Source of the DNA: a virus
DNA: 64,000 nt
IMG/VR virus record: IMGVR_UViG_3300008050_007409
Direction: 5' to 3' (one strand)
The number at the start of each line of letters is the position of its first letter. Position 1 is the stretch's first letter. This document shows, piece after piece, positions 206-50,177 of this stretch. The notes below the pieces were generated by a model, which was not told the origin of the DNA, ran no database searches, and saw only the letters and a list, made by a program, of their open reading frames with translations. A program made the translations under genes and the position numbers.

Positions 206-273
206 CTCTCCAGAGCGACTGACCCCCGCCGAAGGAGCGGGGCGAGGGAGGCCTTCGTGCCTTCGCCCGTAGA

Positions 274-304
274 GTGAAATTCACCTTTCTGATCCCCCAT
301 AAGC
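274..304 (+). promoter_or_regulatory. repeated promoter motif GTGAAA-N18-CATAAGC (copy 1)
   Basis: GTGAAA 274-279 and CATAAG 298-303; same spacing at 900 and 30952. Confidence 0.7.
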
Positions 305-899: not shown

Positions 900-930
900 G
901 TGAAATCAGGGTTGTGGATCCCCCATAAGC
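900..930 (+). promoter_or_regulatory. repeated promoter motif (copy 2)
   Basis: GTGAAA 900-905, CATAAG 924-929. Confidence 0.7.
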
Positions 931-957: not shown

Positions 958-1470
958 ATGAAGTGCAAGATCTTCCACGGGAATCCGGGGAACGTCGAGT
1001 CCAAGATCAACGAGTGGCTGAAGGAGAGCAGCTGCACCATCTCGCACCGGGAGATGGTGCAGCTGCTCTCCGAGGTGGTGATAGAGCGCCCCGGCGGACT
1101 CCGTGAAGGGGCTGGTCTCGATCTCACGGGGGGTTCAGACCAAGGCCAGGATGCGCGGCGGGTGTTGGTGCCCGTCGTGGCCGTGACCGTCTGGTACGAG
1201 GAGCTCCCTCCCACACAGGTGGAGGCTCAGCATCGTAGGGAGCAGGGCGACCTGATCAAGAAGGCCCTGGGAGTCCGCGTCGACGAGTTCGACCTGTCGG
1301 TGCGCTCGGCCAGCTGCCTGCAGAACGCTGGCATCGAGTACATCTGGCAGCTCGTCGAGAAGACCGAGGCCGAGATGTATAGGACCAAGAAATTCGGCCG
1401 CAAGTCGATCAACGAGCTCAAGGAGCATCTCAAGGAGTACGGCCTCTCCCTGGGCATGTCCCGTCCGTGA
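958..1470 (+). CDS. RNA polymerase alpha C-terminal-domain (alpha-CTD) protein fused to a small N-terminal domain
   Basis: C-terminus [58 protein letters not shown] matches the RpoA CTD; no alpha-NTD; AGGAGG RBS. Confidence 0.9.
1062..1153. repeat. 92-nt inverted repeat, copy A (partner 30796-30887)
   Basis: Reverse complement of 30796-30887: 60/63 identical, then a 13-nt unmatched block, then 16/16 identical. Confidence 0.95.
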
Positions 1471-1516: not shown

Positions 1517-1546
1517 TAGAAACAGTCCTCCATATCCCCCATAAGC
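1517..1546 (+). promoter_or_regulatory. repeated promoter motif (copy 3)
   Basis: TAGAAA...CCCCCATAAGC upstream of AAGGAGG-ATG at 1569. Confidence 0.6.
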
Positions 1547-3336: not shown

Positions 3337-3367
3337 TCGAAGTCCTTCCCTCTGATCTCCTATAAGC
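3337..3367 (+). promoter_or_regulatory. degenerate copy of repeated promoter (TCGAAG-N18-TATAAGC)
   Basis: Same spacing as other copies; upstream of ATG 3413. Confidence 0.45.
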
Positions 3368-5920: not shown

Positions 5921-6255
5921 GGATCGTGATCGTAGAGGACGAGCGGAACCTGGCTCGCGCCATCGAACGCTGCCTCGTCCGAGAGGGTCACGTCATCGTG
6001 GCCACGGCCGAGACCTACGAGGAAGCCGTCGAGAGGATCAACACCCACAAGCCGGAGATTGTGATCACCGACTACCACTTCCCAGGCGGGACTGGCTTGC
6101 AGGTGATGGATCAAGCACTACTGACTGGGGCGAAGGTGATCGGCATGACCGCGGACCCTCATGGACATCAAACCATGCTGGAGTACCTGAGCTACTTCGA
6201 GAAGGTGCTGGCCAAGCCCTTCGACATGAGCGAGTTGATCGAGGCCTTGCAGTGA
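5917..6255 (+). CDS. single-domain response regulator receiver (CheY-like)
   Basis: IVIVEDE, VITDYHFPGGTG (phospho-Asp), GMTA, LAKPF motifs. Confidence 0.9.
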   Translation: MRIVIVEDERNLARAIERCLVREGHVIVATAETYEEAVERINTHKPEIVITDYHFPGGTGLQVMDQALLTGAKVIGMTADPHGHQTMLEYLSYFEKVLAKPFDMSELIEALQ

Positions 6256-7088
6256 TCATCAGGGTCGGCCTGCCGAAGACCACCGGGGCCTTCCCCGGTG
6301 CGCTCTTCGAGCTCGACAAGCCGGGGCTCGTCAGCGCCAACGGCTTGTGGGTGCAGAAGACCGAGCGCTTCAGGGAGCCGGGCTTCGCCGTCTGCGACAT
6401 CGACTTGGCGCTCGACAGCGCTGGCTACGTCGTGATGAAGAAGTGGGGCGGCGAGTACCCCTGGACCATCCAGCAGTACGTGGAGCTCGCGGGGCTCTGG
6501 GGCTGGACCTGGTGGGCCAGCATGGACTTCTGCTGCGAGCCCGCCGTCGCCATCGGACAGGACCAGATCGATCACCGGGTGTGGCTCACGGCCATGCACC
6601 TCACGGCGATCAACTTCCAGGTGCGTGTCTGGCGAGACGCCGGCGCCTTCTGGCTCCAGTACCCTCTGCCCATCCTGCAAGGCTGGAAGCCGGACGACTA
6701 CCTCCGCTCCGTCGAGCTGACCTACGGGTCCATGGGCGGATTCCCTGATCTTGTTGGTCTTGGATCTGTCTGCGGCCGGCATCTGCACGGCCCGGACGGC
6801 TTCGAGGCCATCCTCAACGCTGTGGACCGGGAGCTGCCCGCCCACACCAAGCTCCACCTCTTCGGTGTGAAGGGCGCGATCCTCAAGAGGTTCCGTGATC
6901 ACCCCCGCATCGGGTCGATGGACTCCATCGCCTGGGACTTCCGAGCCCGCAAGCTGGCCAACGAGAGGCGAGCGGTGCAGGAGGAGTCCCTGGGCTGGAG
7001 GCCGACGAAGACCGACAAGGAGTGGATCCCCTGCAACAACGAGCTGCGCATCGAGGCCATGCGCCTCTGGACGGAGAAGCAGACTTGA
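6252..7088 (+). CDS. DpdA / queuine-tRNA-ribosyltransferase-like transglycosylase
   Basis: LDSAGY, ASMDFCCEP, PILQG, VGLGSVC, LHLFGVKG, SMDSIAW motifs of the TGT/DpdA fold. Confidence 0.75.
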   Translation: MIIRVGLPKTTGAFPGALFELDKPGLVSANGLWVQKTERFREPGFAVCDIDLALDSAGYVVMKKWGGEYPWTIQQYVELAGLWGWTWWASMDFCCEPAVAIGQDQIDHRVWLTAMHLTAINFQVRVWRDAGAFWLQYPLPILQGWKPDDYLRSVELTYGSMGGFPDLVGLGSVCGRHLHGPDGFEAILNAVDRELPAHTKLHLFGVKGAILKRFRDHPRIGSMDSIAWDFRARKLANERRAVQEESLGWRPTKTDKEWIPCNNELRIEAMRLWTEKQT

Positions 7089-11460: not shown

Positions 11461-11474
11461 TCTTCGCCCGTAGA

Positions 11475-23533: not shown

Positions 23534-24583
23534 TCAGTACTGGCTGATGGCGGGGTAGGTGACCCCGTCGGCGGCCTGGTTGTAGACCGTGGTGCCCACG
23601 GCCGACTCGGCGATCAGGGAGTCGCTGGAGTCGTCGCCGCCGCCCTGCCCGTTGTAGAGCTCGAGCTTGGCGATGGACGCCACGTTGCCGATGCCGATCC
23701 CGATGTCCTCCCAGGCCTGGAACATGATCAGGTTGGCGACCTTGTCCAGGTAGAACTTCGTCGAGTTCAGGATGAGGAACTTGCCGATCCACTCCGGGCT
23801 GGTGAACCCGTAGATGTTGCCGGTCTCGAGGATGTCGGTCTTGATCGTGCGGACGACCAGGCGGCCCAGGATCTTGTCGTAGGTGTAGCCCTCGACGATG
23901 ACCTTGCTGGCGACGGAGTCACCGAAGTCCTCGACGGTCCACAGCATGACGTCGTCCCAGTCCTCCTCGTTCATGAGGACCTTCTCCAGGCGGCGGCGCC
24001 GGCCGTCGAGCTGCTTGAACAGCTTGACCAGGTCGCCCTTCTGGATGGTGCCTCGGAGGCCGTTGCCCGAGCCGTTCTCGGTCGCGTCGTCGGTCGCCTG
24101 CTCGCCGCGGACGACGTAGCCCGTGGCGGTGACGGCGGCGTCGATGTGGACCAGGAAGCGGTAGTCCTCGATCTCCTGGATGTCCTTGACGGAGTTGTCC
24201 TCGATCACCTTGGTGATGGGCATCCGGTAGGCCAGGAGCTCCTGCTCGGGCTTCTCGAAGCGCTCGCTGGAGATCGTGTAGAAGGCGATCTCGTACCGCT
24301 CGCCCGAGATCAGACGCGACGTGGGCTGACCGCGGAAGGTCATGCTCATGGCACGGCTGTTGGGCTCGATCTCGTCGATGAACACCAGCGTGTCGTGGTT
24401 GACACTGCGCTGGCACTCGCTCGGCTGCACCATCTTGGGGGGCAGGATCTTGCGGGCGAAGCTGTTCTCGCGCAGCTTGTCGCGCACGTAGGACTGGGCC
24501 TTCGCGGCGACCTTCTCCTTGCCTTCGGCGGTGGAGAGGTGCGCGGTGAAGAGCTGGTTCAGGGTTGCGGTCTGAGCATCCAT
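23534..24583 (-). CDS. major capsid protein (HK97 fold)
   Basis: VRDKLRENSFARKILPP, FYTISS..F, IQEIED..FL and C-terminal AWEDIGIGIGN..SIAKL; strong codon bias; follows protease, scaffold and decoration genes. Confidence 0.85.
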   Translation of the reverse strand: MDAQTATLNQLFTAHLSTAEGKEKVAAKAQSYVRDKLRENSFARKILPPKMVQPSECQRSVNHDTLVFIDEIEPNSRAMSMTFRGQPTSRLISGERYEIAFYTISSERFEKPEQELLAYRMPITKVIEDNSVKDIQEIEDYRFLVHIDAAVTATGYVVRGEQATDDATENGSGNGLRGTIQKGDLVKLFKQLDGRRRRLEKVLMNEEDWDDVMLWTVEDFGDSVASKVIVEGYTYDKILGRLVVRTIKTDILETGNIYGFTSPEWIGKFLILNSTKFYLDKVANLIMFQAWEDIGIGIGNVASIAKLELYNGQGGGDDSSDSLIAESAVGTTVYNQAADGVTYPAISQY

Positions 24584-31717: not shown

Positions 31718-31785
31718 CAGCCGCACAACCCAGACCTGCCCCCTCGGGGGCAGGGGACCCTGGGCTCTGTGCTTGCCTGTAGATC

Positions 31786-33513
31786 CTACCGGCGTGCGTT
31801 GCGGTGCTTGAACTTCTTGCCGGTGCCGGGGGCGTGGAGGTCCGGACGCTGGTGATCGAACTGGCTGACCAGGAGGGCCAGGACCCCGGTGTGCATGAAG
31901 TCGTCAGGGGTGCCAGGCGGATGGTTGAAGATGATCTCCCGAGCCTTGTCGCTGTACTCGGAGTAGATCGCCAGGATGTCTCGGGCGAAGGTCTCGAACT
32001 GCTCCCAGTTGAAGAAGGCGATGCCTCCCGACTTCGGCCCCCGCTTGATCAAGGAGAAGAAGTCCTGCATGACGCGGGAGCGGTGGCAGATGAACTTGTT
32101 CCCCTGCTTGTCCCACTTCACCTTCTCCTTGAGGCGGCCGACGTACTGGTACTGGATGATCCGCTGGGCGCCCAGCTTCTTCTGCATGATCCGGTTGGTG
32201 TGGAAGCCGAAGCCCCAGTCAGCCCCGATGCGGTTCACACCGAAGACTCGGATCCACATGATCATGTCCTCGACCACGTAGTCAGGGTCGGTCTCTCGGC
32301 CCTCGTAGCGCTTGGCGAAGATGCACCGGAACCTGCCTCGGCTGTCGTAGTTCCAGATCGAGATCACGGAGTAGCTCTGGTCGCCAGTACCCCAGTCGAT
32401 GCCCGCCCAGGAGAAGCTCTGCTTCATGCCCTTGGCAGGGCTGTCGATCATCTCGTAGTCCTGGACGCAGCAGTCCCGGACCTCCTGCAGGGTCACAGGC
32501 TTGAGGCCAGCGTCGTAGCTGCGCCCCATGACCTCGTTCATCCACTTCTGGCGCGGGTACCGCTTGTGCTTGAGCAGCAGCCCCTGCCACATCCGGTTAA
32601 AGATGTCGGGCTGGTGGCGGTAGGAGTAGACCACGATGGGCTGGCAGAGGTGGAAGCCCTCCCACTCCGCGTTCTCAGACCCCAGACGTACCCACTGAGA
32701 CAGGCCGTCGACCGGGTTGATCTCCTTGGAGCACTCCTTGCACTTCAGGCCGGTGGGACCGATGTGGTCCTCGTCGATGACCGCCCACTTCCCGCAGCCG
32801 CACTTGGTCATCCACTCGTTCTGGGTGGAGTGCCTGCTCCAGTAGAACTCGAGGGCGTTGTCGAAGGTCTTCGGCGTGCCAGCGTAGATGGAGAGAGGTC
32901 CGCCGGCGAGCTCCGAACGGAAGAGGACCTCCTCGATGACCGGCAGGATGTCGATGATGATGTCCTGGATCTCGTCGATAGCCAGGAGGTCTGAGGCGAT
33001 ACCGCGGACACGGTCTGCGTTCCGGTAGGCGGCGCGGAGGGCGATCTTCGCCTCGGTGACCCACCGCTTCGTCTGGACGTTCTGCGTCTGTAGGTGTCCC
33101 TTCAGGCCGACGCCGACCATACGCTGCAGGATGGGGGACGTAGCGATCACAGCCCGGAGCCGCTCGTCGCTGAACTCCCGCATCTGCGTGTCGGAGGCGC
33201 TGACGTAGAGGGCCCGGAGGAACGGGATCAGGTTGCAGAGCGCGATGAGCAGGTTGCCCAGGGTCGTGCTCTTCTCCGACTGCCGGCCGAACATCAGCAG
33301 CAGGTTCCGCCGGTAGACCTCCTCCATGTGGTCGGTGAGTTCGTTCAGCCGCTCGATCGGCGTCGCCGGCAGGTCGTAGATCTCGTCGAGCCACGGCCGC
33401 CTGAGGAGCTCGATGGGCTCTCCCTTGTGACGGATGGCGAGCTCGGTGAACTCCAGGGGAGTCAGCTCGAGGTTCCCTTCGTCCTCCTCAGCTATGTTGT
33501 GGGCATGCTGCAC
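31786..33513 (-). CDS. terL: terminase large subunit
   Basis: FGRQSEKST Walker A, RGIASDLLAIDEIQD Walker B, GTPK coupling motif, GIDWG and PDDFMH nuclease motifs. Confidence 0.92.
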   Translation of the reverse strand: MQHAHNIAEEDEGNLELTPLEFTELAIRHKGEPIELLRRPWLDEIYDLPATPIERLNELTDHMEEVYRRNLLLMFGRQSEKSTTLGNLLIALCNLIPFLRALYVSASDTQMREFSDERLRAVIATSPILQRMVGVGLKGHLQTQNVQTKRWVTEAKIALRAAYRNADRVRGIASDLLAIDEIQDIIIDILPVIEEVLFRSELAGGPLSIYAGTPKTFDNALEFYWSRHSTQNEWMTKCGCGKWAVIDEDHIGPTGLKCKECSKEINPVDGLSQWVRLGSENAEWEGFHLCQPIVVYSYRHQPDIFNRMWQGLLLKHKRYPRQKWMNEVMGRSYDAGLKPVTLQEVRDCCVQDYEMIDSPAKGMKQSFSWAGIDWGTGDQSYSVISIWNYDSRGRFRCIFAKRYEGRETDPDYVVEDMIMWIRVFGVNRIGADWGFGFHTNRIMQKKLGAQRIIQYQYVGRLKEKVKWDKQGNKFICHRSRVMQDFFSLIKRGPKSGGIAFFNWEQFETFARDILAIYSEYSDKAREIIFNHPPGTPDDFMHTGVLALLVSQFDHQRPDLHAPGTGKKFKHRNARR

Positions 33514-39572: not shown

Positions 39573-40246
39573 ACCACGCTCCCGGTCACCACACCAGCTG
39601 CCGCCGAAGGCGACGCCCCTCCAACGTAAGGCACGGAGGACGTCAGCGTCGAGAGGCCCAGGGCGTAGGCGTCTGCATAGTAGGGGATCGACGCCGCGAG
39701 GTCCGCATTGATCGGTGTTCCCGGCACGTCCTCCTGACCGAAGACCCCCGTGGCCTGCAGAGCAGCAGGGAGGGTCGTCAGCAGGCTGCCCAGCGCGGTG
39801 GCGTAGATGTCTGGGTTCGAGGCGATCACGAAGACCGCTGTCCCGGTACCCACCGTCGTGGACGTGTCCCCCTGCAGGAGGGCCAGGGCCGGGATGTTGA
39901 AGAGCATGTTCTGGATGACGGACTGGGCGAACAGCGCCGAGCTCGCCCCGACCCAGGCCGAGGAGGCCAGGAAGGCGGCCGCGGCTGACGGAGCTCCAGG
40001 CAGGGTGAAGGCGAAGGGCGCGGCTGTACCTCCGGGAGCGGCTGTGCCGGAGATCGCGCCCTTCCACTTGAGCGTCGAGATGGTGGTGGCCAGGCCGCTG
40101 GCCAGTCCCTCGATCAGCTTCTGAGCTGGGTTGTGGGTCACGACCCCGGTGGCGGCGTTGCTCCTCATGGCGACCGCAGCGGTGGGGAAGAGTGCGACGT
40201 GGCCGGTGAAGGTCAGATCGGCCAGGCCTGACCCTGTCAGAGGCAT
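39569..40246 (-). CDS. putative baseplate/spike-associated protein
   Basis: Ala/Gly/Thr-rich; coupled to the spike gene. Confidence 0.5.
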   Translation of the reverse strand: MPLTGSGLADLTFTGHVALFPTAAVAMRSNAATGVVTHNPAQKLIEGLASGLATTISTLKWKGAISGTAAPGGTAAPFAFTLPGAPSAAAAFLASSAWVGASSALFAQSVIQNMLFNIPALALLQGDTSTTVGTGTAVFVIASNPDIYATALGSLLTTLPAALQATGVFGQEDVPGTPINADLAASIPYYADAYALGLSTLTSSVPYVGGASPSAAAGVVTGSVV

Positions 40247-41814
40247 CAGAGGCTCTCACTGACGAATGTTGAGGGCAGAGCCACGGGGCTCGGGATGCCG
40301 CTGGCGCCGACTGAGCTCGCTCCCAGGATGGGAGCACCCGTCACGTAGTCGACGGGGTGGGTGAGGGTGGTGACGACTGCGCCGGCGGCGCCCGCCATGC
40401 CCATGAAGACTGTCCCAAGCTGGTCGATCGAAATCTCCCCAGCCGCTGTGGTGATCTGGATTCCAGTGGCGTTGATCTCCACCTTGGACAACTCGCCGAG
40501 CATGTTCTCCAAGAAGATGGCTCCGGTAGGGGAGATCCGAATCTCTCCGAAGGGGGCCAGCTTCGTGAGCCCCATCGTGATGCGGAGGTCGCTGGTGATT
40601 CCGTGGATGCCGATCTCACCTTGGTTGCAGGTGAGCTGGTAGCCCACATCCTCGCCGGAGAGCCAGTTGGCGTTGGTGATCGTGACCTCCTTCTTCCCGC
40701 TGATGATCTCCTTCGTGTTCCCTCCGACCTTCTCTCGGTAGTCGGCACCGGCGGTGATCTGAGCTGTGCCCGTGGCGACCTCCGCCAGGTCTCCGTTGAC
40801 TGTCCTCTCGACTGCGCCCTTGATCTCTTCAGTGAGCCTGCCCGTGGTCCTGGTGACGGGTCCGCTGATCGTCTCCGTCAGGCTGCCGTTCACCGAAACC
40901 GCCCTGTCCGTACCCACGCTGAGGGAGTCGGACCTGTGCACGACCACGTTCCTGGAGCCGTAGTCGACGGAGCTGATGCCTCGAACCTGCTGGAAGAAGT
41001 CCGCAGCGATGAACTCGATCTTCTTCCCCTCCAGGTTGACGAACTCGCCTCCGCCCTGGATCCTCTGGCAGTTGCCGTCCTTGTCGATCCAGACCTGGTA
41101 GTTGTTGTTGATCAGCAGACGGCCGACGATCTGGCCGTTGCTGCCGTTGATGACCGCCTGGGCGTCCTCGTCAGAGATACGACCCAGCCCCAGGTCGATC
41201 ATGGGGTCCTCGTCGGAGAACTCCTTGACCTGCAGCCGGAACTCGACCGGGTCCTTTCCCGAGCCGTGGGAGTCGTCGCTGGTCCTGGACTTCCACTCGA
41301 GCTTGCCGCCGGCGGCGTTCTGCTCCCAGTTCGAGAAGAACTCCCGGATGGTGTCCTGCAGAGGGAGGTAGATCCTCTGGCTCATCTGCGTGGAGCCGAT
41401 CTCCAAAGAGCCGCCCTTGCGCAGGATGATGAAGGGGTTGGACCCCGGCCCGGAGATCATCTGATCGCCCTGACCGAGCACCGGCCTGTTCATCCGGTGG
41501 TCGTTGGGGTCCTCCTCGTCGTCCGCGTCGTCGAGCTGCCTGGGGAGGCTGGCGCCGGCCATGATGAAGGGGGCCTTCTGGTCGCTGGGGCGGCAGAGCC
41601 AGACGGGCGTGTTGACCTCCGGCATGAAGAAGTTGCCCTGGCCGTCCGCCCCCACGTTCATGGGGTTGATCGGGACGCCCTCGTGGACGCAGTTGTCCGG
41701 CGTCACCACCGTGCACGTGTAGGAGGTGTTGTTCACCTCCTGGATCATCCCCATCGTCACCTTGGACTGGTGCTGGTGGATGTTCGTGGATCCCTGGAAT
41801 CGCCTCTTCCACAT
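40246..41814 (-). CDS. baseplate central spike (gp5/gpV-like)
   Basis: N-terminal OB fold (G.FFMPEVNTPVWL), then beta-helix-type repeats (VGTDRAVSVNGSLTETISG...). Confidence 0.75.
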   Translation of the reverse strand: MWKRRFQGSTNIHQHQSKVTMGMIQEVNNTSYTCTVVTPDNCVHEGVPINPMNVGADGQGNFFMPEVNTPVWLCRPSDQKAPFIMAGASLPRQLDDADDEEDPNDHRMNRPVLGQGDQMISGPGSNPFIILRKGGSLEIGSTQMSQRIYLPLQDTIREFFSNWEQNAAGGKLEWKSRTSDDSHGSGKDPVEFRLQVKEFSDEDPMIDLGLGRISDEDAQAVINGSNGQIVGRLLINNNYQVWIDKDGNCQRIQGGGEFVNLEGKKIEFIAADFFQQVRGISSVDYGSRNVVVHRSDSLSVGTDRAVSVNGSLTETISGPVTRTTGRLTEEIKGAVERTVNGDLAEVATGTAQITAGADYREKVGGNTKEIISGKKEVTITNANWLSGEDVGYQLTCNQGEIGIHGITSDLRITMGLTKLAPFGEIRISPTGAIFLENMLGELSKVEINATGIQITTAAGEISIDQLGTVFMGMAGAAGAVVTTLTHPVDYVTGAPILGASSVGASGIPSPVALPSTFVSESL

Positions 41815-44800
41815 CAGTACTGCCCTGCCCAGTCCTTCCCGAGTACCTCCTCACCCTTGCCGAATTCGGAGGCATGCGCCGCCGCGGGGATCGGATGGTA
41901 GCCGTGGATGTCGCTCTTCCAGCCCTCTCGTACCGCACGCTCCATGGTGTCGTTGAGCTTCTGGAAGTTCAAGCGTGCCATCCAGTCCTCCTGCATGGCC
42001 AGCGGCATCTGCCCGACACCCTTGAGGGTGGGCGTGTATCGCACGTCCTTCTTGGACGGACCGGACACGTCGTTCCAGTGCTTGATCTCACTGATGCGTC
42101 GGAAGTCACCCGGCGACCAGTCCGGGTTGTCCCCAGGGTCGTCGACCTCCGCCAGGTTGGTGATGGCGCGGACGATGACCTCGATGTTGCGGCGCTTCAC
42201 CTTGGCCGCGTTGTTGTGCAGGACGCTCTCGATCTCGTCCGACATCAGGTCCTGCACGTCCTCGACGTCGCGGAGCTCCAGGAGCTTCCGGGGATCGACC
42301 ACGCCATCCGAGAGCGCGTCGCCCTTCCGGACCTCCTGTCCACGGCGCACCATGAGCTCGTGATCACCTCGGACGTAGTGCTTCTTCCCTCCGATCTCCA
42401 CATCCCAGCCGCCCTGGGGAGCTTGCCGGACCGTGGACACCTTCCCGCCCCTCTCAGCCAGCGGGGCCGAGTCCGGGAGGTTCTTGGGCAGCGTCAGGAG
42501 GTTGTTCAGGGTCTGGAAGGTGTTCGCGGAGCGGGCTGACCGGCCCTTGGCGATGCCTCCGGTGTGGAAGGTGTTGAGGCTGAGCTGGACGCTGGGCTCT
42601 CCCACGGCCTGACCGGCGATGACGCCGATGTTGGTGCCGATGTCCGACTCCTTCCCCATCTCGTTGAGGCCCAGGCACTTCTGGCACACCCCGTTCTTGG
42701 CCCGGCACCGGAGGGGAGAGCGGACGGGGAGGTCGGACCTCTTCGACTTGCGGGCAGCGGCGACCACGCTGGGCGTGACCATCGACCCGGCCTTGTGGAC
42801 CTTGCCGTCGAGCTTCACTGAGGTGGAGAGGTAGCGGTCGACCAGGTCCCTGTTGTCCAGGTCCAGCTTGATCCCCGCGGTGGTCCCGCAGTCGCCCTTG
42901 GAGACGACCTGGTCCATCGTGGTGTTGTTGATCCGCTTGGACAGGTAGCCGGGGTCGCGGACGCCCTGCACCTTCTGCACAGCGCCCTTCCGAGCTCCGT
43001 GCATCGTGGTCCAGTAGGAGCCCAGGTCCATGCCCTCCGAGTAGCTCCGGTCGATCATGAACGGGACCACCCGGCTCTTGGCGTCCATCACCAGCGCAGG
43101 GGTGCTGATGATCTGCTTGAGCTGCTCAGGCTTCCCTCGGGATCCGGAGATCACCATCTCGTAGATGTTGGTGGGGTTGTCCCTGAGCGCCAGATCGCTG
43201 AGCCTGTCGATCTCGTCGTCCACCTTCTGCAGGTGAGCGATGGCCTTCGCCTTGCCCTTCTTCTTGTCCTTGGTCGTGGACCGGATCCGGTCGGCCTCGC
43301 GCTGAGCCCCGTCGATCATCTTGTCTCGCTGGGACTTGTTGACCACCTGGAAGTCGTCCAGGCCGATGGAGAAGCCGATCTCGTAGCTGTGGTCGTTGCC
43401 GATGTCCTTGAAGCGGTTGGAGACCTCGGCGTAGAGGTCCGGGTGGTTCTTGGCGATGTCGGCCAGGATGGTCTTGGTCCCACCCTTGTCCATCAGCCGC
43501 ATCTTGCCGACAGGCTTCTTCCCGGTCTCACGCATCTCGGCAGGGAGCACGGCCTCGATCTCCAGACGACCCAGGGTGGTCGGGTCTCCACCCACCTTGA
43601 TCTGGTCTGTGAGCTTGATCTTGCCCTGCATCTTGGCCCGCCGGGCGTCGTGCATGTCCTTGAAGGCGTGGGAGGTCTTCCTGCCCGGCTTGCTCGCCAG
43701 GTACATCCCCAGGAGGGCTTCATGCCCTGGGGTATACATGACGGATCCGTCGGTCGGGTTGAACAGGTTGTTCGAGGGGAACATCTGCGTCGCCTCCCGA
43801 GCCGCCTTGCTGGTGACCGGCAGGTAGACGCTCATGGCGTCGCCGTCGAAGTCGGCGTTGTAGCCGGACGTGACCAGCGGGTGGATCTCCAGGGCGTTGC
43901 CCTTCACGATCCGAGGCTTGAAGGCCATGACGTTGAACTTGTGCAGCGACGGGTCCCGCTTGAGCAGGATCGGCCGGTCCTTCATGACCCGCTCGAGGGT
44001 CTTCTGGGCGGGCACGGACTTCTTGTTGATGGCCTCCCTGGCATCCAGTGGGTTCCAGTTCATCCGGACGAGCTCGCGCTGGACGTAGGGCGCGTAGAGG
44101 CCCCAGGCGATCTTCTCGGGGACGCCCAGCTCGTCGATGCCCTGGTGGGGCTCAGGGATGATGATGGACCGGCCCGAGTAGGCCTGCCGCCTCTTGATCA
44201 GCGTCTTCTGGAAGTAGCCGTTCTTGGACCGCCCCTTGCGGGAGCCGTCCTTGCTCTTGGTCTGCCCGGAGATGATGTCCAGGACACCGCGGTACTCGCG
44301 GGTGAGGCTGGGCCCGTTGCCGTTGAGCGCCGAGAGCGCGTCGTAGACGGCGACCCGGTCCTCGGCCAGGCCGTACGACGGGATCCCAGCCTTCTTGGCG
44401 TCGGTCATGGTCTGGTTGACCGTGCCCAGGTCCTTGTAGAGGTAGTTCAGATCCGTGTTGGAGAGGGAGCCGTCGTCGTTGACCACCGGCGGGCGGAAGA
44501 CGGGGGGCAGGACCGGGACCGCCCGCATCATGTAGATCGAGGGGTCGAGGTTGTTGTCCTCGAGCATCTTGAAGACGCGGAGCCGCTTGTGGACCTTGGA
44601 GCGCGACCCGGCCTTCAGGCGCTTGGCCCGCTCCTCCAGCTCTGCTCGCTCCTTCTTCACGTCGACCTGCTTGAGCATCTCCTCGAAGGCGGCGCCGCCG
44701 ACCTTGCCGTTGACCTTGACCTCCCCGGCCAGGATCTTGCGGTAGCGGGTCTTGTCGATGTCGAGGACCTTCTGGACGGCCTCCTCGAACAGGGGGTTGG

Positions 44801-47800
44801 GGAGGGGCTCCGCGAGCTCGATGTGGCTCCACTTCGTGCCGTTGAGTCCCCCGGTGGTGGCCGGGTCGAAGATCCCTCCCACCTCCGGCTTGATGTCCTT
44901 CCCCATGACGGCGCGGTTGGGCTTCGTGAGCTTGCCCGAGCTCATCTTGCGGACCTGGGCCTCCGTGAAGGGCATCAGGGAGATCTGCGACCCCTCCTTC
45001 ACGGGGTTCACCCGCATGGAGCGGAGGTAGTTCTCGAACTTGTCGTAGGCGAAGGGGACCTTGGCCGGAGGGATCCGCTTGTTGTCCCGGATGGCGTCCC
45101 AGAGCGCGTCGTTGCGCGTGCTCTTGTAGGCGTACATCTCGTGGAGGTTGTCGCGGGCGCCGTGGGCCAGCATGGCGTAGAGCCCCAGCTCGCCCAGGGA
45201 CTGACCGCCGTGCGGAGCTCCTCCTGTCGGGGCGTGGTGCACGTCCCACCCAGCTCCGGGGTCTCCGGACCTGACGGCGATCTTCTTGCCCGCCTGGTGC
45301 TTGAGCTTCACGATGTACTGGCGGCCGGTCAGCACGTCCTGATCGAAGGGCTTCCCCGTCTTGGGGTTGATCAAGGACTCCTTGTCCGTGAGCCCCAGGG
45401 CTGCCAGGTCCTTCTTGACCATGGCGAGGTAGTCGGTGTCGCCGTCGAAGTTCCTGACCCGGTAGGTCTCGCCGGTCTTCTCTGCGACCTTGCCGGCCGC
45501 GGTCTCCAGGACCTGACCCAGGTTGATGCGCCCAGGCACGCCCAGAGGGTTCAGGGCGATCTCGACGTGCTTGTTCTCGCCGTCCTCGTCCATGAACGGC
45601 ATCTCCGCATCCGGGACGATGCGGGTGATCACGCCCTTGTTTCCGTGTCGGCCGACGAGCTTGTCTCCGATCTGCGCAGGCTCCTCGGTCTTCACGTAGA
45701 CCATGATGCTGCCGTCGCTGCGGCGCACCACGTCGCTGACCACTCCGGGGTAGGGCTTGTCCCAGGTCATCGAGCGGTTCCGGAACTTCCTGCTCCGCCC
45801 GCGCCGGAACTCTCGGATGTCCTTGAGCTGCTGGCTGGGCGTCGGCGGCTTGAGCACCAGTACCAGCGGGTCACCCTCGACGACCTTGGAACCGATCTTG
45901 ATCCGTCCATCGTCGTCGATGCTGGCCAGCTGATCCTTGTCGAAGTCGCTGGGGTACTGAGACAAGAACTTCTTCCGCTCGGTGATCGCCAGCTTGTCCA
46001 GGCGTGCCTGGTTCGGGTGCACGTGGAGCGAGGTCAGCTTCTTCGCCGCCGTCTCGCTGATGACGATCCCATCCTCGAAGTTGTAGCCCTGGAACGGGAT
46101 GTAGGCGGCCCGGAGGTTGGTGCCCAGGGCCAGGGTACCGTCCTTGGTGAAGGTGGAGTCGACGAGGAGGTCCCCCTCCGCGACCTTGTCTCCGGCCTTG
46201 ACCTTGACCTCGGAGTCGTAGAGCGAGCCGCCCGGCAGGGCGAAGTCCCGGTAAAACTGGACCTCGTGCTTCTTCCCCTTGCGGTCCTTGATGATCACCG
46301 CGTCCTTCCGGACCTGGTCGACGGTGCCTGCGATCGGTGCCTTCCGCGCCGAGTACTCTCCGAAGATCTCCTCGAACGACTGGTCGCCGTCTGTCTGCAC
46401 CTGGACCAGGGGAGCCTCCCGCTCCTTCAGAGGCACGGCCTGCTCCGCCTGCTTGGCGGCAGTCATGGCCCGGTTGCCCTGGTTGTTCTGCAGGAAGGGC
46501 ACCAGGTTCGAGCTCACCCCGAACACAGCCCGCGGGCTGGGGAGGATGTAGTCGACCTCCTTGGGGCTCACGTAGGTGATCTCCCCATCCCGGAGTGCCT
46601 TGACCCGCTTCCCACGAGCCTTGCGCCCCTTGTACTGGTCCGGGAAGGAGATCACCTTTCCAGCGGTGTCCGCCGGCGACAGCTTCTCGGTCCTGCCGGT
46701 CCTGGCGTTCTTGAAGCGGGAGACGACGGTGTCGCCCTTCTTCTCCGTGCCGAGGGCCAGGGACAGGGTGATGCCCGTCTTGTCGCCCTCCGGCGTCCTC
46801 ACGGGGTCCAGGAAGCCGAACTGGCTGGCGTTCAGGAGCTTGGCCTCGTCCAGGACGGCGAAGGGGTTGGCGATGCCTCCCTGCTCTCCTAGGATGGTCG
46901 TGGCGGTCTGCCCGGCCAGCATCCCGAGCGGGTTGGTCTGGTCCGGCTCGTTGGCGAGGCTCTGGCTGAAGAACTTCTTGATCGACGGCGTGACGGTCCC
47001 GGAGGGGACCACCTTCTTCAGATTGCGCCGCTTGTCGATGTTCCACCGGATCTTCCGCTGGATGGTCGAGGCGTCCCTCCGGATGCGTCCTGAGATCAGG
47101 TCCTCAGCCGCGTTGACCGACTGGAATTCCATCGAGGACTTGTTGTCCGGCTCGCGGTCGCCGCGGGAGATGGACAGGAGCTGCTTCGAGGATTCGATCA
47201 GCGTGTCACCGTCCACGCTCTTGAAGCCCTTGCCCAGGGTCCGCTTGGTGGTCTGCTGGTCGACTTCCGTGCGGGCCAGGTGCTCGGCGAACAGGCCGGC
47301 GTGCTCGGCGGGGTTCTCCGGCAGAGATCCGTGCACGGCCTTGTAGAACTTGCCGTAGACCCGCTCGGGCTTGGAGTAGCGCTTGTTGCGCTCGAGCAGC
47401 TTCTTCCCCCAGGCGCGCTCCAGGGCATCGTCGGAGACGCCCGCCGACTTGAGCAGGGGGTAGGCCGCCATCTTCGAGGTGCCGACGTGCACCAGGAACA
47501 GCGCTCGCTTCGGATCAAACTCCATCTTGAAGGAGCGGCCGCGCCTCCCCTCCTGTCCGGTGAGGGCCTCGTGGTTCCCGAGGTTGAACTCCGCGTAGAG
47601 CTTGTCGTCTCGGCTCCTCCGGTGGTAGACGCCGGGCCGGAGACGGAGCTGGTTGAAGATCTGGTACTCGCTGCCCTTGTGGATGTAGCCGAATCGGTCT
47701 GTAGTCCGGGGGAGGTGCCCGACGATCACCTTCTTCCTGTCGATCTCCTTCATGTCGCCGTCACGGCCCTTCCGCATCAGGGACATGTCCGCGTAGATCG

Positions 47801-47996
47801 GCACCTGCCAGGACTTCCCGCTTCGGATGGCCTTCTGCTGGTCCCGCAGGTCGGAGGCACTCTTGGTGTCCCTCACCTCGACGGAGTGGACCACCAGCTT
47901 GGAGTTCTTGGTCTCAACCTGGAGCGCCTCCTCGACAGCCTCCGAGACCTTCGCGGAGAGCGCCTCGAACTGCTGATCCGGATTGAGGTGGGGCAT
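41814..47996 (-). CDS. single-polypeptide multisubunit-type RNA polymerase (beta-beta' fusion)
   Basis: beta motifs DQTNPL, TPEG, YNFEDGI, GDKLVGRHGNKG, GGQSLGE, then beta' motifs PVLPP.FRP, YSGRSII, RDPSLH, YNADFDGD, HGARKG, GEPSVQL.LNTFHTGG. Confidence 0.97.
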   Translation of the reverse strand: MPHLNPDQQFEALSAKVSEAVEEALQVETKNSKLVVHSVEVRDTKSASDLRDQQKAIRSGKSWQVPIYADMSLMRKGRDGDMKEIDRKKVIVGHLPRTTDRFGYIHKGSEYQIFNQLRLRPGVYHRRSRDDKLYAEFNLGNHEALTGQEGRRGRSFKMEFDPKRALFLVHVGTSKMAAYPLLKSAGVSDDALERAWGKKLLERNKRYSKPERVYGKFYKAVHGSLPENPAEHAGLFAEHLARTEVDQQTTKRTLGKGFKSVDGDTLIESSKQLLSISRGDREPDNKSSMEFQSVNAAEDLISGRIRRDASTIQRKIRWNIDKRRNLKKVVPSGTVTPSIKKFFSQSLANEPDQTNPLGMLAGQTATTILGEQGGIANPFAVLDEAKLLNASQFGFLDPVRTPEGDKTGITLSLALGTEKKGDTVVSRFKNARTGRTEKLSPADTAGKVISFPDQYKGRKARGKRVKALRDGEITYVSPKEVDYILPSPRAVFGVSSNLVPFLQNNQGNRAMTAAKQAEQAVPLKEREAPLVQVQTDGDQSFEEIFGEYSARKAPIAGTVDQVRKDAVIIKDRKGKKHEVQFYRDFALPGGSLYDSEVKVKAGDKVAEGDLLVDSTFTKDGTLALGTNLRAAYIPFQGYNFEDGIVISETAAKKLTSLHVHPNQARLDKLAITERKKFLSQYPSDFDKDQLASIDDDGRIKIGSKVVEGDPLVLVLKPPTPSQQLKDIREFRRGRSRKFRNRSMTWDKPYPGVVSDVVRRSDGSIMVYVKTEEPAQIGDKLVGRHGNKGVITRIVPDAEMPFMDEDGENKHVEIALNPLGVPGRINLGQVLETAAGKVAEKTGETYRVRNFDGDTDYLAMVKKDLAALGLTDKESLINPKTGKPFDQDVLTGRQYIVKLKHQAGKKIAVRSGDPGAGWDVHHAPTGGAPHGGQSLGELGLYAMLAHGARDNLHEMYAYKSTRNDALWDAIRDNKRIPPAKVPFAYDKFENYLRSMRVNPVKEGSQISLMPFTEAQVRKMSSGKLTKPNRAVMGKDIKPEVGGIFDPATTGGLNGTKWSHIELAEPLPNPLFEEAVQKVLDIDKTRYRKILAGEVKVNGKVGGAAFEEMLKQVDVKKERAELEERAKRLKAGSRSKVHKRLRVFKMLEDNNLDPSIYMMRAVPVLPPVFRPPVVNDDGSLSNTDLNYLYKDLGTVNQTMTDAKKAGIPSYGLAEDRVAVYDALSALNGNGPSLTREYRGVLDIISGQTKSKDGSRKGRSKNGYFQKTLIKRRQAYSGRSIIIPEPHQGIDELGVPEKIAWGLYAPYVQRELVRMNWNPLDAREAINKKSVPAQKTLERVMKDRPILLKRDPSLHKFNVMAFKPRIVKGNALEIHPLVTSGYNADFDGDAMSVYLPVTSKAAREATQMFPSNNLFNPTDGSVMYTPGHEALLGMYLASKPGRKTSHAFKDMHDARRAKMQGKIKLTDQIKVGGDPTTLGRLEIEAVLPAEMRETGKKPVGKMRLMDKGGTKTILADIAKNHPDLYAEVSNRFKDIGNDHSYEIGFSIGLDDFQVVNKSQRDKMIDGAQREADRIRSTTKDKKKGKAKAIAHLQKVDDEIDRLSDLALRDNPTNIYEMVISGSRGKPEQLKQIISTPALVMDAKSRVVPFMIDRSYSEGMDLGSYWTTMHGARKGAVQKVQGVRDPGYLSKRINNTTMDQVVSKGDCGTTAGIKLDLDNRDLVDRYLSTSVKLDGKVHKAGSMVTPSVVAAARKSKRSDLPVRSPLRCRAKNGVCQKCLGLNEMGKESDIGTNIGVIAGQAVGEPSVQLSLNTFHTGGIAKGRSARSANTFQTLNNLLTLPKNLPDSAPLAERGGKVSTVRQAPQGGWDVEIGGKKHYVRGDHELMVRRGQEVRKGDALSDGVVDPRKLLELRDVEDVQDLMSDEIESVLHNNAAKVKRRNIEVIVRAITNLAEVDDPGDNPDWSPGDFRRISEIKHWNDVSGPSKKDVRYTPTLKGVGQMPLAMQEDWMARLNFQKLNDTMERAVREGWKSDIHGYHPIPAAAHASEFGKGEEVLGKDWAGQY

Positions 47997-48066
47997 GTTG
48001 ATCCAGAGAAGAGGGTGCCGTCATTCTGGCATAAGAGCCATGAAAGTAACCTGGAGGAAGAAGCCT

Positions 48067-48198
48067 ATGGGCAAGGACAAGGACCCCCGCGAGGAGTCCA
48101 AGAAGCGTTTCGGCAAGCTCAACGACCGGATCACCAAGAACCTGTACCCCGACAAGGACGACAGGGACAAGGACGACAAGGACAAGGGCGGCCGATGA
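48067..48198 (+). CDS. small charged protein
   Basis: GGAGG RBS; CATAAG promoter motif at 48030; typical codons. Confidence 0.6.
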   Translation: MGKDKDPREESKKRFGKLNDRITKNLYPDKDDRDKDDKDKGGR

Positions 48199-48257: not shown

Positions 48258-50177
48258 TCAGATCCCCGCGCCACCTGCGCGACGTGGAGGACGCTGCTCT
48301 GGGAGCGGCTGCTGCTCCAAGGCGGTCATGACCGCCATCTTCTGCTGGACCAGCTCAGAGAGCCTCGGGCTCTGCTGCGCCATGTTCTGCAGGTAGCCGG
48401 CCCTCTCCTGGTCCGGCATCCGCGAAAGCCTCTTCGCGAGGGCCTCAGCGTAATCGATGAGGTTGACCCCGCCGCCCTGAGGCGGCTGACCGGCTGCGGG
48501 GTTTCCTTCGGGTGTAGGTCCGGGCTGCGCGGCCATCCCCTGCGGGTGCTGCATGCCAGGCATGCCACCCTTCTCCTGCATCTTCTTCTGGGCCTCCTGC
48601 ATCTTCTTCTGGGCTTCGATCTGGTACTTGGTCTGGATCTGCTGCATCTCGCCCTGGATCTCAGCCTTGTAGAGCGAGTCGAGCTTGGCCACCTCGAGGT
48701 TGCGCCTGAGCTCCGTCTCGATGAGCCTCGTCTCGTCCAGGGCGTCCTTGTCGAACTCGGACAGCAGGGTCTTGTCGCTGATCTTCTTGAGCTGGTTGAG
48801 GCTCATGAGCAGCTGCTTGGACTGGAGGTCATCCGCCATCTTGAAGGCCTTCATGTGGGCCTTGGGCTGCTTCCAGGACATGAAGCGGGCGATGTTGGGC
48901 AGCAGGAAGTGGTTGAGGAAGCGGTGGTGCTCCTCCCGGTAGTTCAGGAACCGGTTCTCCAGCATCCGGAGGGTCACGCTCGACCCGGTCCAGCTCATGC
49001 CTCCGAAGACGAACTCCTGCGGAGCTCCCATGCCGGTGATGATGTGCTCAGACCAGACCCGGATCTCCTGGGTCGGCATGAGGGACCGGCCGTCGCCGCC
49101 GATGCGAGTGTGCCCGATGGGCAGCGGCATGATCGGCTTGTAGTTCGGGTCCTGCCGCCAGCGCTTCAGCTCCACCTCGACCCGACGCTTCCAGTCGGAC
49201 AGGTTGACCATCGTGTACGGGCTGGCGTTCGGATCCTGTGTCGAGGGGAACAGAACGTCGAGCGGGACCAGGTGCTCGAGCATGACGGCCTCGTTGGCCT
49301 TCTTGAGCACCTGCAGGTAGAAGCTGTCCTTCAAGGCCGGCAGGATCGGCGGGTAGGCCCAACCGGAGTCGTTGTCCTGCACCGAGGGCGTCGGCGCCTT
49401 GAAGTGGTAGAGGTTCCGCTCGACGAGCTCGATCGGGCGGCGAGTCTTCATCGCCTTGATGAAGGAGTCCGGCATCTCCTCGAGGTAGTGCCGGTGCTTG
49501 GTCAGAACCCGCTTCCTGATCCGCGCCGGGATGTTGTAGTAGTACCGGGTCCGCTGGGTGATCGGGTTGAAGTCGATGTCGACGTCAGACGGGTTCCACC
49601 GCAGGAGCTTGATGTCCCGGTAGGAGTGGTACCACTTGTCGTCGACCTTGGCGGGGCCGTTGTGGAAGCACGTCGGGCAGTTCAGCGTGTACTTCCAGCT
49701 GGAGAAGTCCCACTGGACCTTGAACTTCAGCCTCTTGATCCGCTTGCTGAATCCGCAGTTCCTGCACGTCAGGTACTTGTGGAACGGGTAGACGATCGAC
49801 ACCAGGCAGTTGCCGTAGGCGTGGTAGTCGAGGCCGGCCTCGACCTGGAAGCGGTGGATGTCCAGGACGTTGTAGAGGAGGTCCTCCCACCGCTTCTTCT
49901 GGTGATCGAAGCCCTCTCGCTCGTCGTAGTCGAGGATCACCCGCGTGATCGGGTACTCCGCCATCTTGCGGATCACCGCACTGATCAGCGGGTTGGCCAG
50001 GGCGTGGTAGCGGCACCACCGGAACAGGTGCTTGACCGTGCTCGGCAGGTCCATGTGCGCCACGTCCCACCAGGGGGACGGGTAGCGGAAGTTGGACGTG
50101 CGCCCGTCCAAGTTCCCATGCTTGTAGCCTGAGAACCTGAAAGAGCTGCCTGGTCCGAACGTGCCGCCGAGAGCCAT
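48258..50177 (-). CDS. portal protein
   Basis: LFRWCRY...PLISAVIRKMAEYPIT, LDYHAYGNCLVS, YHFKAP, W.YPPILPALK, I..GMGAPQEFVFGG.SWTGSSV.LRMLEN. Confidence 0.85.
   Translation of the reverse strand: MALGGTFGPGSSFRFSGYKHGNLDGRTSNFRYPSPWWDVAHMDLPSTVKHLFRWCRYHALANPLISAVIRKMAEYPITRVILDYDEREGFDHQKKRWEDLLYNVLDIHRFQVEAGLDYHAYGNCLVSIVYPFHKYLTCRNCGFSKRIKRLKFKVQWDFSSWKYTLNCPTCFHNGPAKVDDKWYHSYRDIKLLRWNPSDVDIDFNPITQRTRYYYNIPARIRKRVLTKHRHYLEEMPDSFIKAMKTRRPIELVERNLYHFKAPTPSVQDNDSGWAYPPILPALKDSFYLQVLKKANEAVMLEHLVPLDVLFPSTQDPNASPYTMVNLSDWKRRVEVELKRWRQDPNYKPIMPLPIGHTRIGGDGRSLMPTQEIRVWSEHIITGMGAPQEFVFGGMSWTGSSVTLRMLENRFLNYREEHHRFLNHFLLPNIARFMSWKQPKAHMKAFKMADDLQSKQLLMSLNQLKKISDKTLLSEFDKDALDETRLIETELRRNLEVAKLDSLYKAEIQGEMQQIQTKYQIEAQKKMQEAQKKMQEKGGMPGMQHPQGMAAQPGPTPEGNPAAGQPPQGGGVNLIDYAEALAKRLSRMPDQERAGYLQNMAQQSPRLSELVQQKMAVMTALEQQPLPEQRPPRRAGGAGI

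What the first reader, a model, noticed from the sequence alone, without database searches (positions are those of the whole stretch)
41814..47996. Single-chain bacterial-type beta-beta' RNA polymerase inside the virion morphogenesis module
Seen: one 2060-aa ORF with beta motifs followed seamlessly (…FENYLRSMRVNPVKEGSQISLMPFTEAQVRKMSSG…) by beta' motifs, with intact NADFDGD, both beta catalytic lysines, bridge helix and trigger loop. It is far shorter than cellular beta+beta' and lacks the beta' N-terminal zinc-binding domain (GGIFDPATTGGLNGTKWSHIEL). It lies between the portal and baseplate spike genes, and its stop overlaps the spike start (TGATG). Established: beta-beta' fusions occur in Helicobacter and Wolbachia; phiKZ-like phage RNAPs are split, and crAss-like ones are highly divergent. 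Inference: a streamlined, late-expressed, virion-packaged RNAP of bacterial ancestry that transcribes the ATAAG-class early genes, possibly without alpha.
Basis: partly seen in the sequence, partly recalled or inferred. Interest (0 to 1): 0.9.

Follow-up and report, generated by a model that had tools for sequence, protein, structure and literature searches.

The report
One-chain phage RNA polymerase with sigma
A large uncultured marine phage encodes both big subunits of a bacterial-type RNA polymerase as one protein among its particle genes, and probably carries it into the cell with its own sigma factor to switch on early genes; many uncultured phages share this design, and I found no paper that describes it as a family.

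Summary
Confirmed: one 2060-aa minus-strand ORF, beta (1-~1003) fused to beta' (~1004-2060), catalytic residues intact, first zinc domain deleted, between portal and spike, on a 165-kb marine myophage contig. An independent sample spans the junction unchanged. At least 120 full-length relatives exist. They form one clade, outside Bacteria and separate from the published mReC enzymes. The clade includes Salmonella phage Arash, whose partly fused homolog is the top spectral-count protein in purified virions. An ortholog of Arash's virion sigma Gp10 occurs in all near-complete single-chain genomes tested except the deepest-branching one (weak hit). A bipartite motif ([CG]AA, then ATAAG 21-24 nt on) precedes non-structural genes across the family, Arash included. 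No alpha or omega genes were found in complete relatives, and key alpha-contact residues are lost. Best model: a virion-packaged, alpha-less polymerase plus sigma for early genes (~0.6). Activity, packaging here and late transcription are untested. This scan had already noted the family on about 79 other genomes.

The parts
41814..47996 (-). Single-chain beta-beta' RNA polymerase, 2060 aa (P0001)
44988..47996 (-). beta-like part (residues 1-~1003): R509, E641/D642, K779, K787, R823, H900 conserved; rifampicin pocket and alpha-contact positions changed; flap tip not conserved
44970..45011 (-). Fusion junction (residues ~996-1009), predicted as a confident beta-hairpin joining the last beta strand to the first beta' strand
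   Evidence: pLDDT 83-93 around it; spanned by an independent contig
44829..44867 (-). Site of the deleted N-terminal beta' zinc-binding domain (residues ~1044-1056)
44349..44432 (-). beta' clamp helices (residues ~1189-1216), the predicted docking site of the phage sigma; host-sigma70 contact residues not conserved
43839..43859 (-). NADFDGD catalytic motif (1380-1386)
42564..43001 (-). Bridge helix (~1666-1687), second zinc site (C1703, C1764, C1771, C1774), trigger loop (Q1804-H1811)
48258..50177 (-). Portal protein gene, upstream neighbour
   Evidence: homolog of Arash Gp204
40246..41814 (-). gp5-like baseplate spike gene, start overlaps the polymerase stop (TGATG)
48031..48035 (+). ATAAG promoter-like core firing away from the polymerase start into a 43-aa ORF (48067-48198), antisense to the portal-polymerase read-through; same orientation near the polymerase start in 26 of 49 relatives
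274..303 (+). Bipartite promoter-like site (GTGAAA ... CATAAG)
900..929 (+). Bipartite promoter-like site upstream of the alpha-CTD gene
1541..1545 (+). ATAAG site; further intergenic copies at 3362, 3875, 11286, 30977 and 53481, all on the + strand
958..1470 (+). Stand-alone RNA polymerase alpha C-terminal-domain gene (no alpha N-terminal domain matched, so not an assembly subunit)
23534..24583 (-). Major capsid protein (phrog_2522; homolog of Arash Gp226; no PF07068 match)
31786..33513 (-). Terminase large subunit (PF05876/phrog_675 type)

Best explanation
P0001 is the whole catalytic core of a phage RNA polymerase: beta and beta' in one chain, without alpha, omega or the beta' zinc finger. 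It is made late with the head and tail proteins, packed into the particle together with a phage sigma70-family factor (ortholog of Arash Gp10, encoded further up the same structural operon), injected with the DNA, and as a two-protein holoenzyme it transcribes the non-structural early and replication genes from bipartite promoters ([CG]AA box, then GGYATAAG-like box). SHOWN here: anatomy, conserved active site, family, synteny, sigma co-occurrence, motif conservation, absence of alpha/omega genes in complete relatives. FROM A PAPER: Arash homologs and sigma are in purified virions. INFERRED: activity (~0.95), use of the phage sigma (~0.88), reading of ATAAG promoters (~0.8), packaging in this phage (~0.78), independence from host alpha (~0.75), rifampicin resistance. 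Who transcribes late genes is unresolved.
For: Catalytic residues R509, D642, K779, K787, R823, R1347, D1382/4/6, H1811 are 100% conserved in 107 relatives. Portal upstream in 32 and spike downstream in 28 of 35 single-chain loci. Arash Gp206 (30% identity over residues 11-1469, both barrels in one chain, two genes after the portal) has the most spectra in purified virions; unique peptides per 100 aa are 8.4 (Gp206), 6.6 (Gp216), 10.3 (sigma Gp10) and 5.5 (portal) against 0.2-1.4 for primase, ligase, UDG and RNR (PMC10585845). One polymerase per complete genome. Gp10 orthologs in G001-G008, G011, G012 and D69, on the structural strand wherever position was checked. Complex model of a cognate pair from one relative's contig (P0022 600-1345 + P0258): score 0.76, best of 3 controls 0.00; the mark was reached by 58 of 80 solved complexes and 2 of 110 mismatched pairs; runs agree in >=92% of contacts, partner pLDDT >=81; sigma helix 53-63 on the clamp helices, C-terminal part on the flap; like complexes are solved, so this may show likeness only. 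ATAAG enriched upstream of opposite-strand genes in 7 of 8 genomes including Arash (p<=0.01) with [CG]AA peaking 21-24 nt upstream in all eight. No PF01193, PF01000 or PF01192 in complete relatives while 14/14 controls ring. Beta E1083 and G1215 (100% in the sampled bacteria) and R1216, E1219 (81%) are replaced (their role as alpha contacts is recalled). AR9 nvRNAP shows that an alpha-less two-barrel core can work (PMC9209446).
Against: No biochemistry, virion proteome or RNA data for this phage. The Arash preparation also held many non-structural enzymes and its authors allow carry-over; Arash is only ~30% identical and has a split beta'. With a single polymerase gene and no ATAAG sites on the structural strand of this window, late genes need another route that I could not identify. 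The sites at 274 and 900 also resemble the sigma32 consensus (recalled). The deepest-branching complete genome G013 has only a weak sigma hit (E 0.0014). The trigger-loop Arg (E. coli R933) is Asn here and variable in the family.
Confidence: 0.6

Rival explanations
1. Non-virion enzyme: the host holoenzyme (here perhaps with sigma32) starts early genes at the ATAAG sites; the phage polymerase is made during infection and transcribes middle/late genes, and its presence in Arash particles is carry-over.
For: Only one polymerase per genome and late genes need some enzyme. Window sites 274/900 contain TGAAA-N14-CCCCAT, like the recalled sigma32 consensus. The Arash proteome lists 116 proteins, many non-structural.
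Against: Gene sits in the late structural operon with its stop coupled to the spike, an odd place for the enzyme that must transcribe it first. Peptide depth in Arash matches true structural proteins, 5-40 times that of replication enzymes. In most relatives the box is GG(T/C/G)ATAAG, not CCCCAT, and it is kept in phages of unrelated hosts and 49-64% GC.
Confidence: 0.15
2. Packaged or not, the fused core still borrows host alpha2 (and omega) to assemble or work, like the fused cellular enzymes of Helicobacter and Wolbachia.
For: Overall fold and sequence are closest to bacterial enzymes; the phage carries an alpha-CTD gene.
Against: Alpha-contact positions of beta are not conserved, and G1215 is Pro in 94% of the family and in all mReC-type rows. 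The alpha-CTD gene matches no N-terminal assembly domain. AR9 and phiKZ cores work without alpha. An enzyme folded inside a particle cannot easily wait for alpha (inference).
Confidence: 0.13
3. The phage sigma redirects the host core to ATAAG promoters (T4 gp55-like takeover), and the fused polymerase uses other, unrecognised promoters or a sigma-free mechanism.
For: Sigma-only takeover is common in large phages (PMC7598289). Arash and D69 carry a second sigma (Gp196 type) absent from single-chain genomes.
Against: Sigma and polymerase co-occur and both are in Arash particles. The clamp-helix and flap residues that bind host sigma70 are not conserved, as expected for co-evolution with a private sigma. 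The cognate-pair model passes against its controls, with the memory caveat.
Confidence: 0.1
4. Artefact: mis-assembly, host rpoBC captured recently, or an inactive relic.
For: None beyond the single source assembly.
Against: Independent contig across the junction; >=120 full-length clusters; clade outside Bacteria; invariant catalytic residues.
Confidence: 0.02

Closest known systems
Salmonella phage Arash Gp206 + Gp216 with sigma Gp10 (OQ632216; PMC10585845); Vibrio phages D69, D148, D181
   Same: Same clade (100* support); beta fused to the beta' catalytic half in one chain; next to the portal; no N-terminal zinc-finger motif found; orthologous sigma, capsid and protease genes; same ATAAG motif upstream of non-structural genes. 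Found in purified Arash virions.
   Different: Beta' is cut at ~residue 1470 into a second gene (9 loci, a nested subclade); catalytic motif reads DYDGD; a second sigma (Gp196). The paper labels Gp206 simply 'beta' and does not note the fusion or test the enzyme.
mReC, multi-subunit RNAP-encoding Caudovirales (Weinheimer and Aylward 2020, PMC7481178), and cultured YerA41 / Carin-5 enzymes
   Same: Phage two-barrel polymerase readily alignable to cellular beta/beta', branching outside Bacteria; similar total length in one mReC type; loosely joined to this family (SH-aLRT 92); shared Gly-to-Pro change at beta 1215.
   Different: Separate beta and beta' genes in all mReC entries read in the supplement (beta' before beta in the loci fetched); several contigs with two sets; some keep the zinc finger; capsid PF07068 and terminase PF03237 markers not matched here; this family is its own 100* clade.
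phiKZ / AR9 virion and non-virion RNA polymerases
   Same: Alpha- and omega-less two-barrel core; virion packaging for early transcription; AR9 beta' split lies near the alpha-II interface, as the Arash-type split does.
   Different: Four to five core polypeptides, two enzyme sets, specificity subunit without sequence similarity to sigma; only weak matches to P0001 (PHROG E 1e-4 to 1e-26 against 1e-108 for bacterial chains).
Single-chain two-barrel phage polymerases: crAss-like gp66, SPbeta YonO, P23-45 enzymes
   Same: Both barrels in one polypeptide; gp66 and the P23-45 tail-fused enzyme are virion polymerases for early genes.
   Different: Described as too divergent for cellular profiles (PMC7481178); P0001 keeps nearly the whole bacterial architecture (clamp, flap, bridge helix, trigger loop, second zinc site) and appears to use a true sigma70-family factor.
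Cellular beta-beta' fusions (Helicobacter, Wolinella, Wolbachia; own knowledge)
   Same: Same order and same junction geometry.
   Different: Those are ordinary bacterial enzymes of ~2800-2900 aa with alpha, omega and zinc finger; P0001 is not nested in Bacteria.

Membership tests
Two-barrel (cellular-type) DNA-dependent RNA polymerases | DxDGD metal triad in the beta' barrel | tested here: met
   NADFDGD 1380-1386, Asp triad 100% conserved
Two-barrel (cellular-type) DNA-dependent RNA polymerases | Two lysines from the beta barrel, bridge helix, trigger-loop His | tested here: met
   K779, K787, H1811 100% conserved; model matches bacterial beta chains
Two-barrel (cellular-type) DNA-dependent RNA polymerases | RNA synthesis activity | not testable with these tools
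   needs purified protein
Bacterial RNA polymerase (alpha2 beta beta' omega) | N-terminal beta' zinc-binding domain | tested here: not met
   C70/72/85/88 align to gaps
Bacterial RNA polymerase (alpha2 beta beta' omega) | Alpha and omega subunits and conserved alpha-contact residues | tested here: not met
   no genes in complete relatives; beta E1083, G1215, R1216, E1219 replaced; use of host alpha not testable here
Bacterial RNA polymerase (alpha2 beta beta' omega) | Falls inside the bacterial clade | tested here: not met
   Bacteria form one side of a 99* branch without it
mReC (Weinheimer and Aylward 2020) | Alignable beta and beta' regions of >=800 aa with NADxDGD on a tailed-phage contig | tested here: met
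   (Pfam and profile alignment; COG models themselves not available)
mReC (Weinheimer and Aylward 2020) | Separate beta and beta' subunits | tested here: not met
   one ORF here; all supplement rows read list two proteins
mReC (Weinheimer and Aylward 2020) | Clusters within the mReC polymerase clade | tested here: inconclusive
   own 100* clade, not nested among two identified mReC contigs and kin; joined to them at only 92; AU test against grouping with Bacteria p=0.046
mReC (Weinheimer and Aylward 2020) | Capsid PF07068, terminase PF03237 | tested here: not met
   capsid has no Pfam hit, terminase hits PF05876
Arash-like phage polymerase lineage (not formally named) | Beta fused to beta' catalytic half, gene behind the portal, same clade as Arash Gp206 | tested here: met
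Arash-like phage polymerase lineage (not formally named) | Gp10-type sigma in the same genome | tested here: inconclusive
   met in 10 relatives and D69; not in the window; this genome's copy rests on an unchecked note
Arash-like phage polymerase lineage (not formally named) | Present in the virion | not testable with these tools
   shown only for Arash (PMC10585845)
phiKZ/AR9-type jumbo phage polymerases | Core split into 4-5 polypeptides; separate virion and non-virion sets | tested here: not met
   one chain, one copy per complete genome
crAss gp66 / YonO-type single-chain polymerases | Too divergent for cellular beta/beta' profiles | tested here: not met
   Pfam Rpb2_6 E 3e-60; bacterial beta' chains E 1e-108

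The most novel reading that the evidence does not exclude
A widespread, unnamed lineage of 160-210 kb myophages carries the simplest known sigma70-dependent transcription machine: one polypeptide for the whole catalytic core plus one true sigma factor, with no alpha, omega or zinc finger, injected from the virion and reading its own promoter class. It is a third deep branch of bacterial-like polymerases, and may also serve late genes with another factor.
Probability: 0.5. Interest if true: 0.85.

Novelty: new variant of a known kind. Interest (0 to 1): 0.7.

Why it matters
It would show directly that a bacterial-type polymerase can fold and use a real sigma factor without the alpha dimer that is essential in cells, with the beta-beta' fusion as a likely substitute. 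A two-protein, probably rifampicin-resistant enzyme with its own promoter would be a simple model for structure and evolution work and a candidate orthogonal expression system. The lineage is common in metagenomes, and a cultured member on a laboratory Salmonella strain (Arash) makes every step testable now.

Tried and rejected
No whole genome is held for the window and the source record could not be searched, so this phage's own sigma was not examined; it was not among the 120 listed sigma hits, and I did not walk along the contig because of the stated cap on how much of one metagenome record a session may hold. No RNA holder listed. Pfam Sigma70_r2 alone missed the phage sigma in most genomes; 'sigma-independent' was dropped once Gp10 was used as the query. 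No late-promoter motif found: sigma70-like -10 boxes were enriched on the structural strand only in G006 and Arash, none in window 40-55 kb. The sigma could not be assigned to a bacterial subfamily (all NCBIfam scores far below cut-off). The candidate cargo tag seen on other virion-region proteins is absent from the 120 polymerases and from the first 60 residues of the 120 sigmas. The beta' columns of my alpha-contact table were mis-registered for bacteria and were not used. Host not identified: no family member among the 80 genome loci kept from a truncated scan; alpha-CTD look-alikes gave mixed phyla. ARAGORN found no tRNA/tmRNA in the window. Literature searches found no description of the fused family; subscription journals are not covered. 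Spectral counts were not used as copy numbers.
Full report
OBSERVATION. The ORF is real: minus strand, 47996 to 41814, 2060 aa. Pfam finds beta domains then beta' domains in order. Profile alignment to Salmonella RpoB and RpoC places beta at residues 1-~1003 and beta' at ~1004-2060 with no linker. All catalytic landmarks are there and are invariant or nearly so in 107 full-length relatives: R509, E641/D642, K779, K787, R823, H900, R1347, the Asp triad, H1811. The cysteine cluster of the N-terminal beta' zinc domain is deleted; the second zinc site is kept. The stop overlaps the spike start. The window comes from a 165,236-bp contig held in marine metagenomes; a contig from another study spans the junction with no difference. 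An AlphaFold model of residues 480-1480 (pLDDT 86.7, pTM 0.74) shows the junction as a confident beta-hairpin, and its best fold matches are bacterial beta chains. One correction: the smallest full cellular pairs sampled total ~2280-2290 aa, so the protein is about 10% shorter than those, and most of the gap to E. coli is lineage-specific inserts.

SURROUNDINGS. The minus strand carries portal, polymerase, spike, terminase, head protease, capsid and sheath genes; the plus strand carries helicases, primase, UDG and small genes. ATAAG occurs 10 times on the plus strand and never on the minus strand; nine copies are intergenic.

FAMILY. At least 120 clusters at 40-81% identity are full-length single chains, on contigs up to ~200 kb. 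Among 35 single-chain IMG/VR loci the portal lies upstream in 32 and the spike downstream in 28. Nine loci, including the cultured Salmonella phage Arash and Vibrio phage D69, keep beta fused to the catalytic half of beta' but put the rest of beta' (from ~1470) in a second gene. In trees of 1380 columns the whole family is one clade (100*), the Arash type is nested in it, Bacteria form a separate 99* clade, and two contigs identifiable as published mReC members by sample id and length fall with other split enzymes outside the family. The family joins mReC at only 92; forcing it with Bacteria is borderline rejected (p-AU 0.046), with long branches in play and an outgroup that has beta' only. 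All mReC rows I read in the paper's supplement list two separate proteins (PMC7481178), and the capsid and terminase markers differ. So it resembles mReC but is not shown to be a member.

VIRION PACKAGING. In purified Arash particles Gp206 has the most spectra; Gp216, a sigma (Gp10) and a SNF2 helicase (Gp217) are also deeply covered (PMC10585845). Unique peptides per 100 residues are 6.6-10.3 for these, 5.5 for the portal, and 0.2-1.4 for replication enzymes. The authors allow carry-over, and Arash is only ~30% identical, so this is support by homology.

SIGMA AND PROMOTERS. Five complete single-chain genomes have one polymerase each, and no alpha or omega gene was found in the complete genomes tested. 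A Pfam sigma search nearly missed them, but Arash Gp10 as query finds one ortholog in each of G001-G007, in a conserved spot of the structural strand in the genomes mapped, and a family member as query finds it in G008, G011, G012 and D69; only the deepest-branching genome gives a weak hit. The family has sigma regions 2, 3 and 4 and fits no bacterial subfamily. A model of a cognate pair from one relative scored 0.76 against a best control of 0.00 (mark reached by 58 of 80 solved complexes and 2 of 110 mismatched pairs; runs agree in at least 92% of contacts; partner pLDDT at least 81), with sigma on the clamp helices and flap; since such complexes are solved, the pass may reflect likeness. 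The residues that bind host sigma70 there are not conserved. ATAAG is enriched upstream of opposite-strand, non-structural genes in 7 of 8 genomes including Arash, with GG before the box and a [CG]AA element 21-24 nt upstream: the layout of a sigma70-family promoter, but ending in G where host -10 boxes have the near-invariant T (own knowledge).

ALPHA. Beta positions recalled as alpha contacts (E1083, G1215, R1216, E1219) are conserved in the sampled bacteria and replaced in the family. The phage's alpha-CTD gene matches no assembly domain. AR9 shows that an alpha-less core can work (PMC9209446). Independence from host alpha remains an inference.

MECHANISM. Most likely: made late, packed with its sigma, injected, and used for early and replication genes at ATAAG promoters without alpha (0.6). 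Rivals: non-virion enzyme with host-driven early genes (0.15), dependence on host alpha (0.13), sigma acting on host core (0.10), artefact (0.02). Late transcription is unexplained: no structural-strand motif was found, and the second sigma of Arash/D69 is absent from single-chain genomes.

NOVELTY. Each ingredient has a precedent: virion polymerases, alpha-less cores, single-chain two-barrel enzymes, cellular fusions. The combination (a nearly complete bacterial architecture in one chain, a true sigma70-family partner, a family-wide promoter) was not found in the papers I could search; the Arash paper records the proteins without noting the fusion. I rate it a new variant of a known kind. This scan has noted the same family on about 79 genomes, with matching follow-ups; the Arash link, sigma orthology and motif conservation were reached here before those notes were seen, and the notes are not independent evidence.

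Noticed in passing
L112:172-7017 (DATJQA010000074.1): A Candidatus Paceibacterota MAG has a cellular beta-beta' fusion (2281 aa, followed by what look like the S6 and SSB genes), inside the bacterial clade, zinc finger kept with one Cys changed: an independent fusion in a CPR bacterium (single contig, could be an assembly error).
   Followed up: partly
window 48031-48035 (+) and 26 of 49 related loci: An ATAAG box in antisense orientation lies within 120 nt upstream of the polymerase start (3.5 expected). It may just drive an early-gene cassette between portal and polymerase, or damp polymerase expression early by transcriptional interference.
   Followed up: partly
window 958-1470 (+): Stand-alone alpha-CTD protein behind an ATAAG promoter; possible decoy for host activators.
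   Followed up: partly
window 6252-7088 (+): DpdA / queuine tRNA-ribosyltransferase-like gene, suggesting 7-deazaguanine DNA modification.
   Followed up: no
P0001 residues ~349-370, 518: Rifampicin-pocket positions are replaced family-wide (H526 to Gly 96%, S531 to Thr 99%, R687 to Glu 96%), predicting resistance.
   Followed up: partly
L001, L002, L036, L037, L038, L040, L051, L061, L063: A nested subclade splits beta' at ~residue 1470 (E. coli beta' ~550-570), near the alpha-II interface where the AR9 enzyme is also reported to be split.
   Followed up: partly
family alignment; Single-chain enzymes are strongly basic (median net +62) against -63 for bacterial pairs; Arash and D69 are about neutral, so this is not a reliable packaging signature.
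   Followed up: partly
Arash Gp217 and L026, L056, G004, G005 and others: A SNF2 helicase that is deeply covered in Arash virions has orthologs downstream of the polymerase in part of the family; no ortholog in this window.
   Followed up: partly
P0059, P0090, P0098, P0101, P0102, P0114, P0116: Many family members carry LAGLIDADG/intein insertions in the polymerase.
   Followed up: no
window 265-273, 891-899, 1512-1520, 11466-11474, 31775-31783 (+): A repeated GCCYGTAGA box (5 copies, 0.6 expected), three of them just upstream of ATAAG promoters.
   Followed up: no
   Followed up: partly
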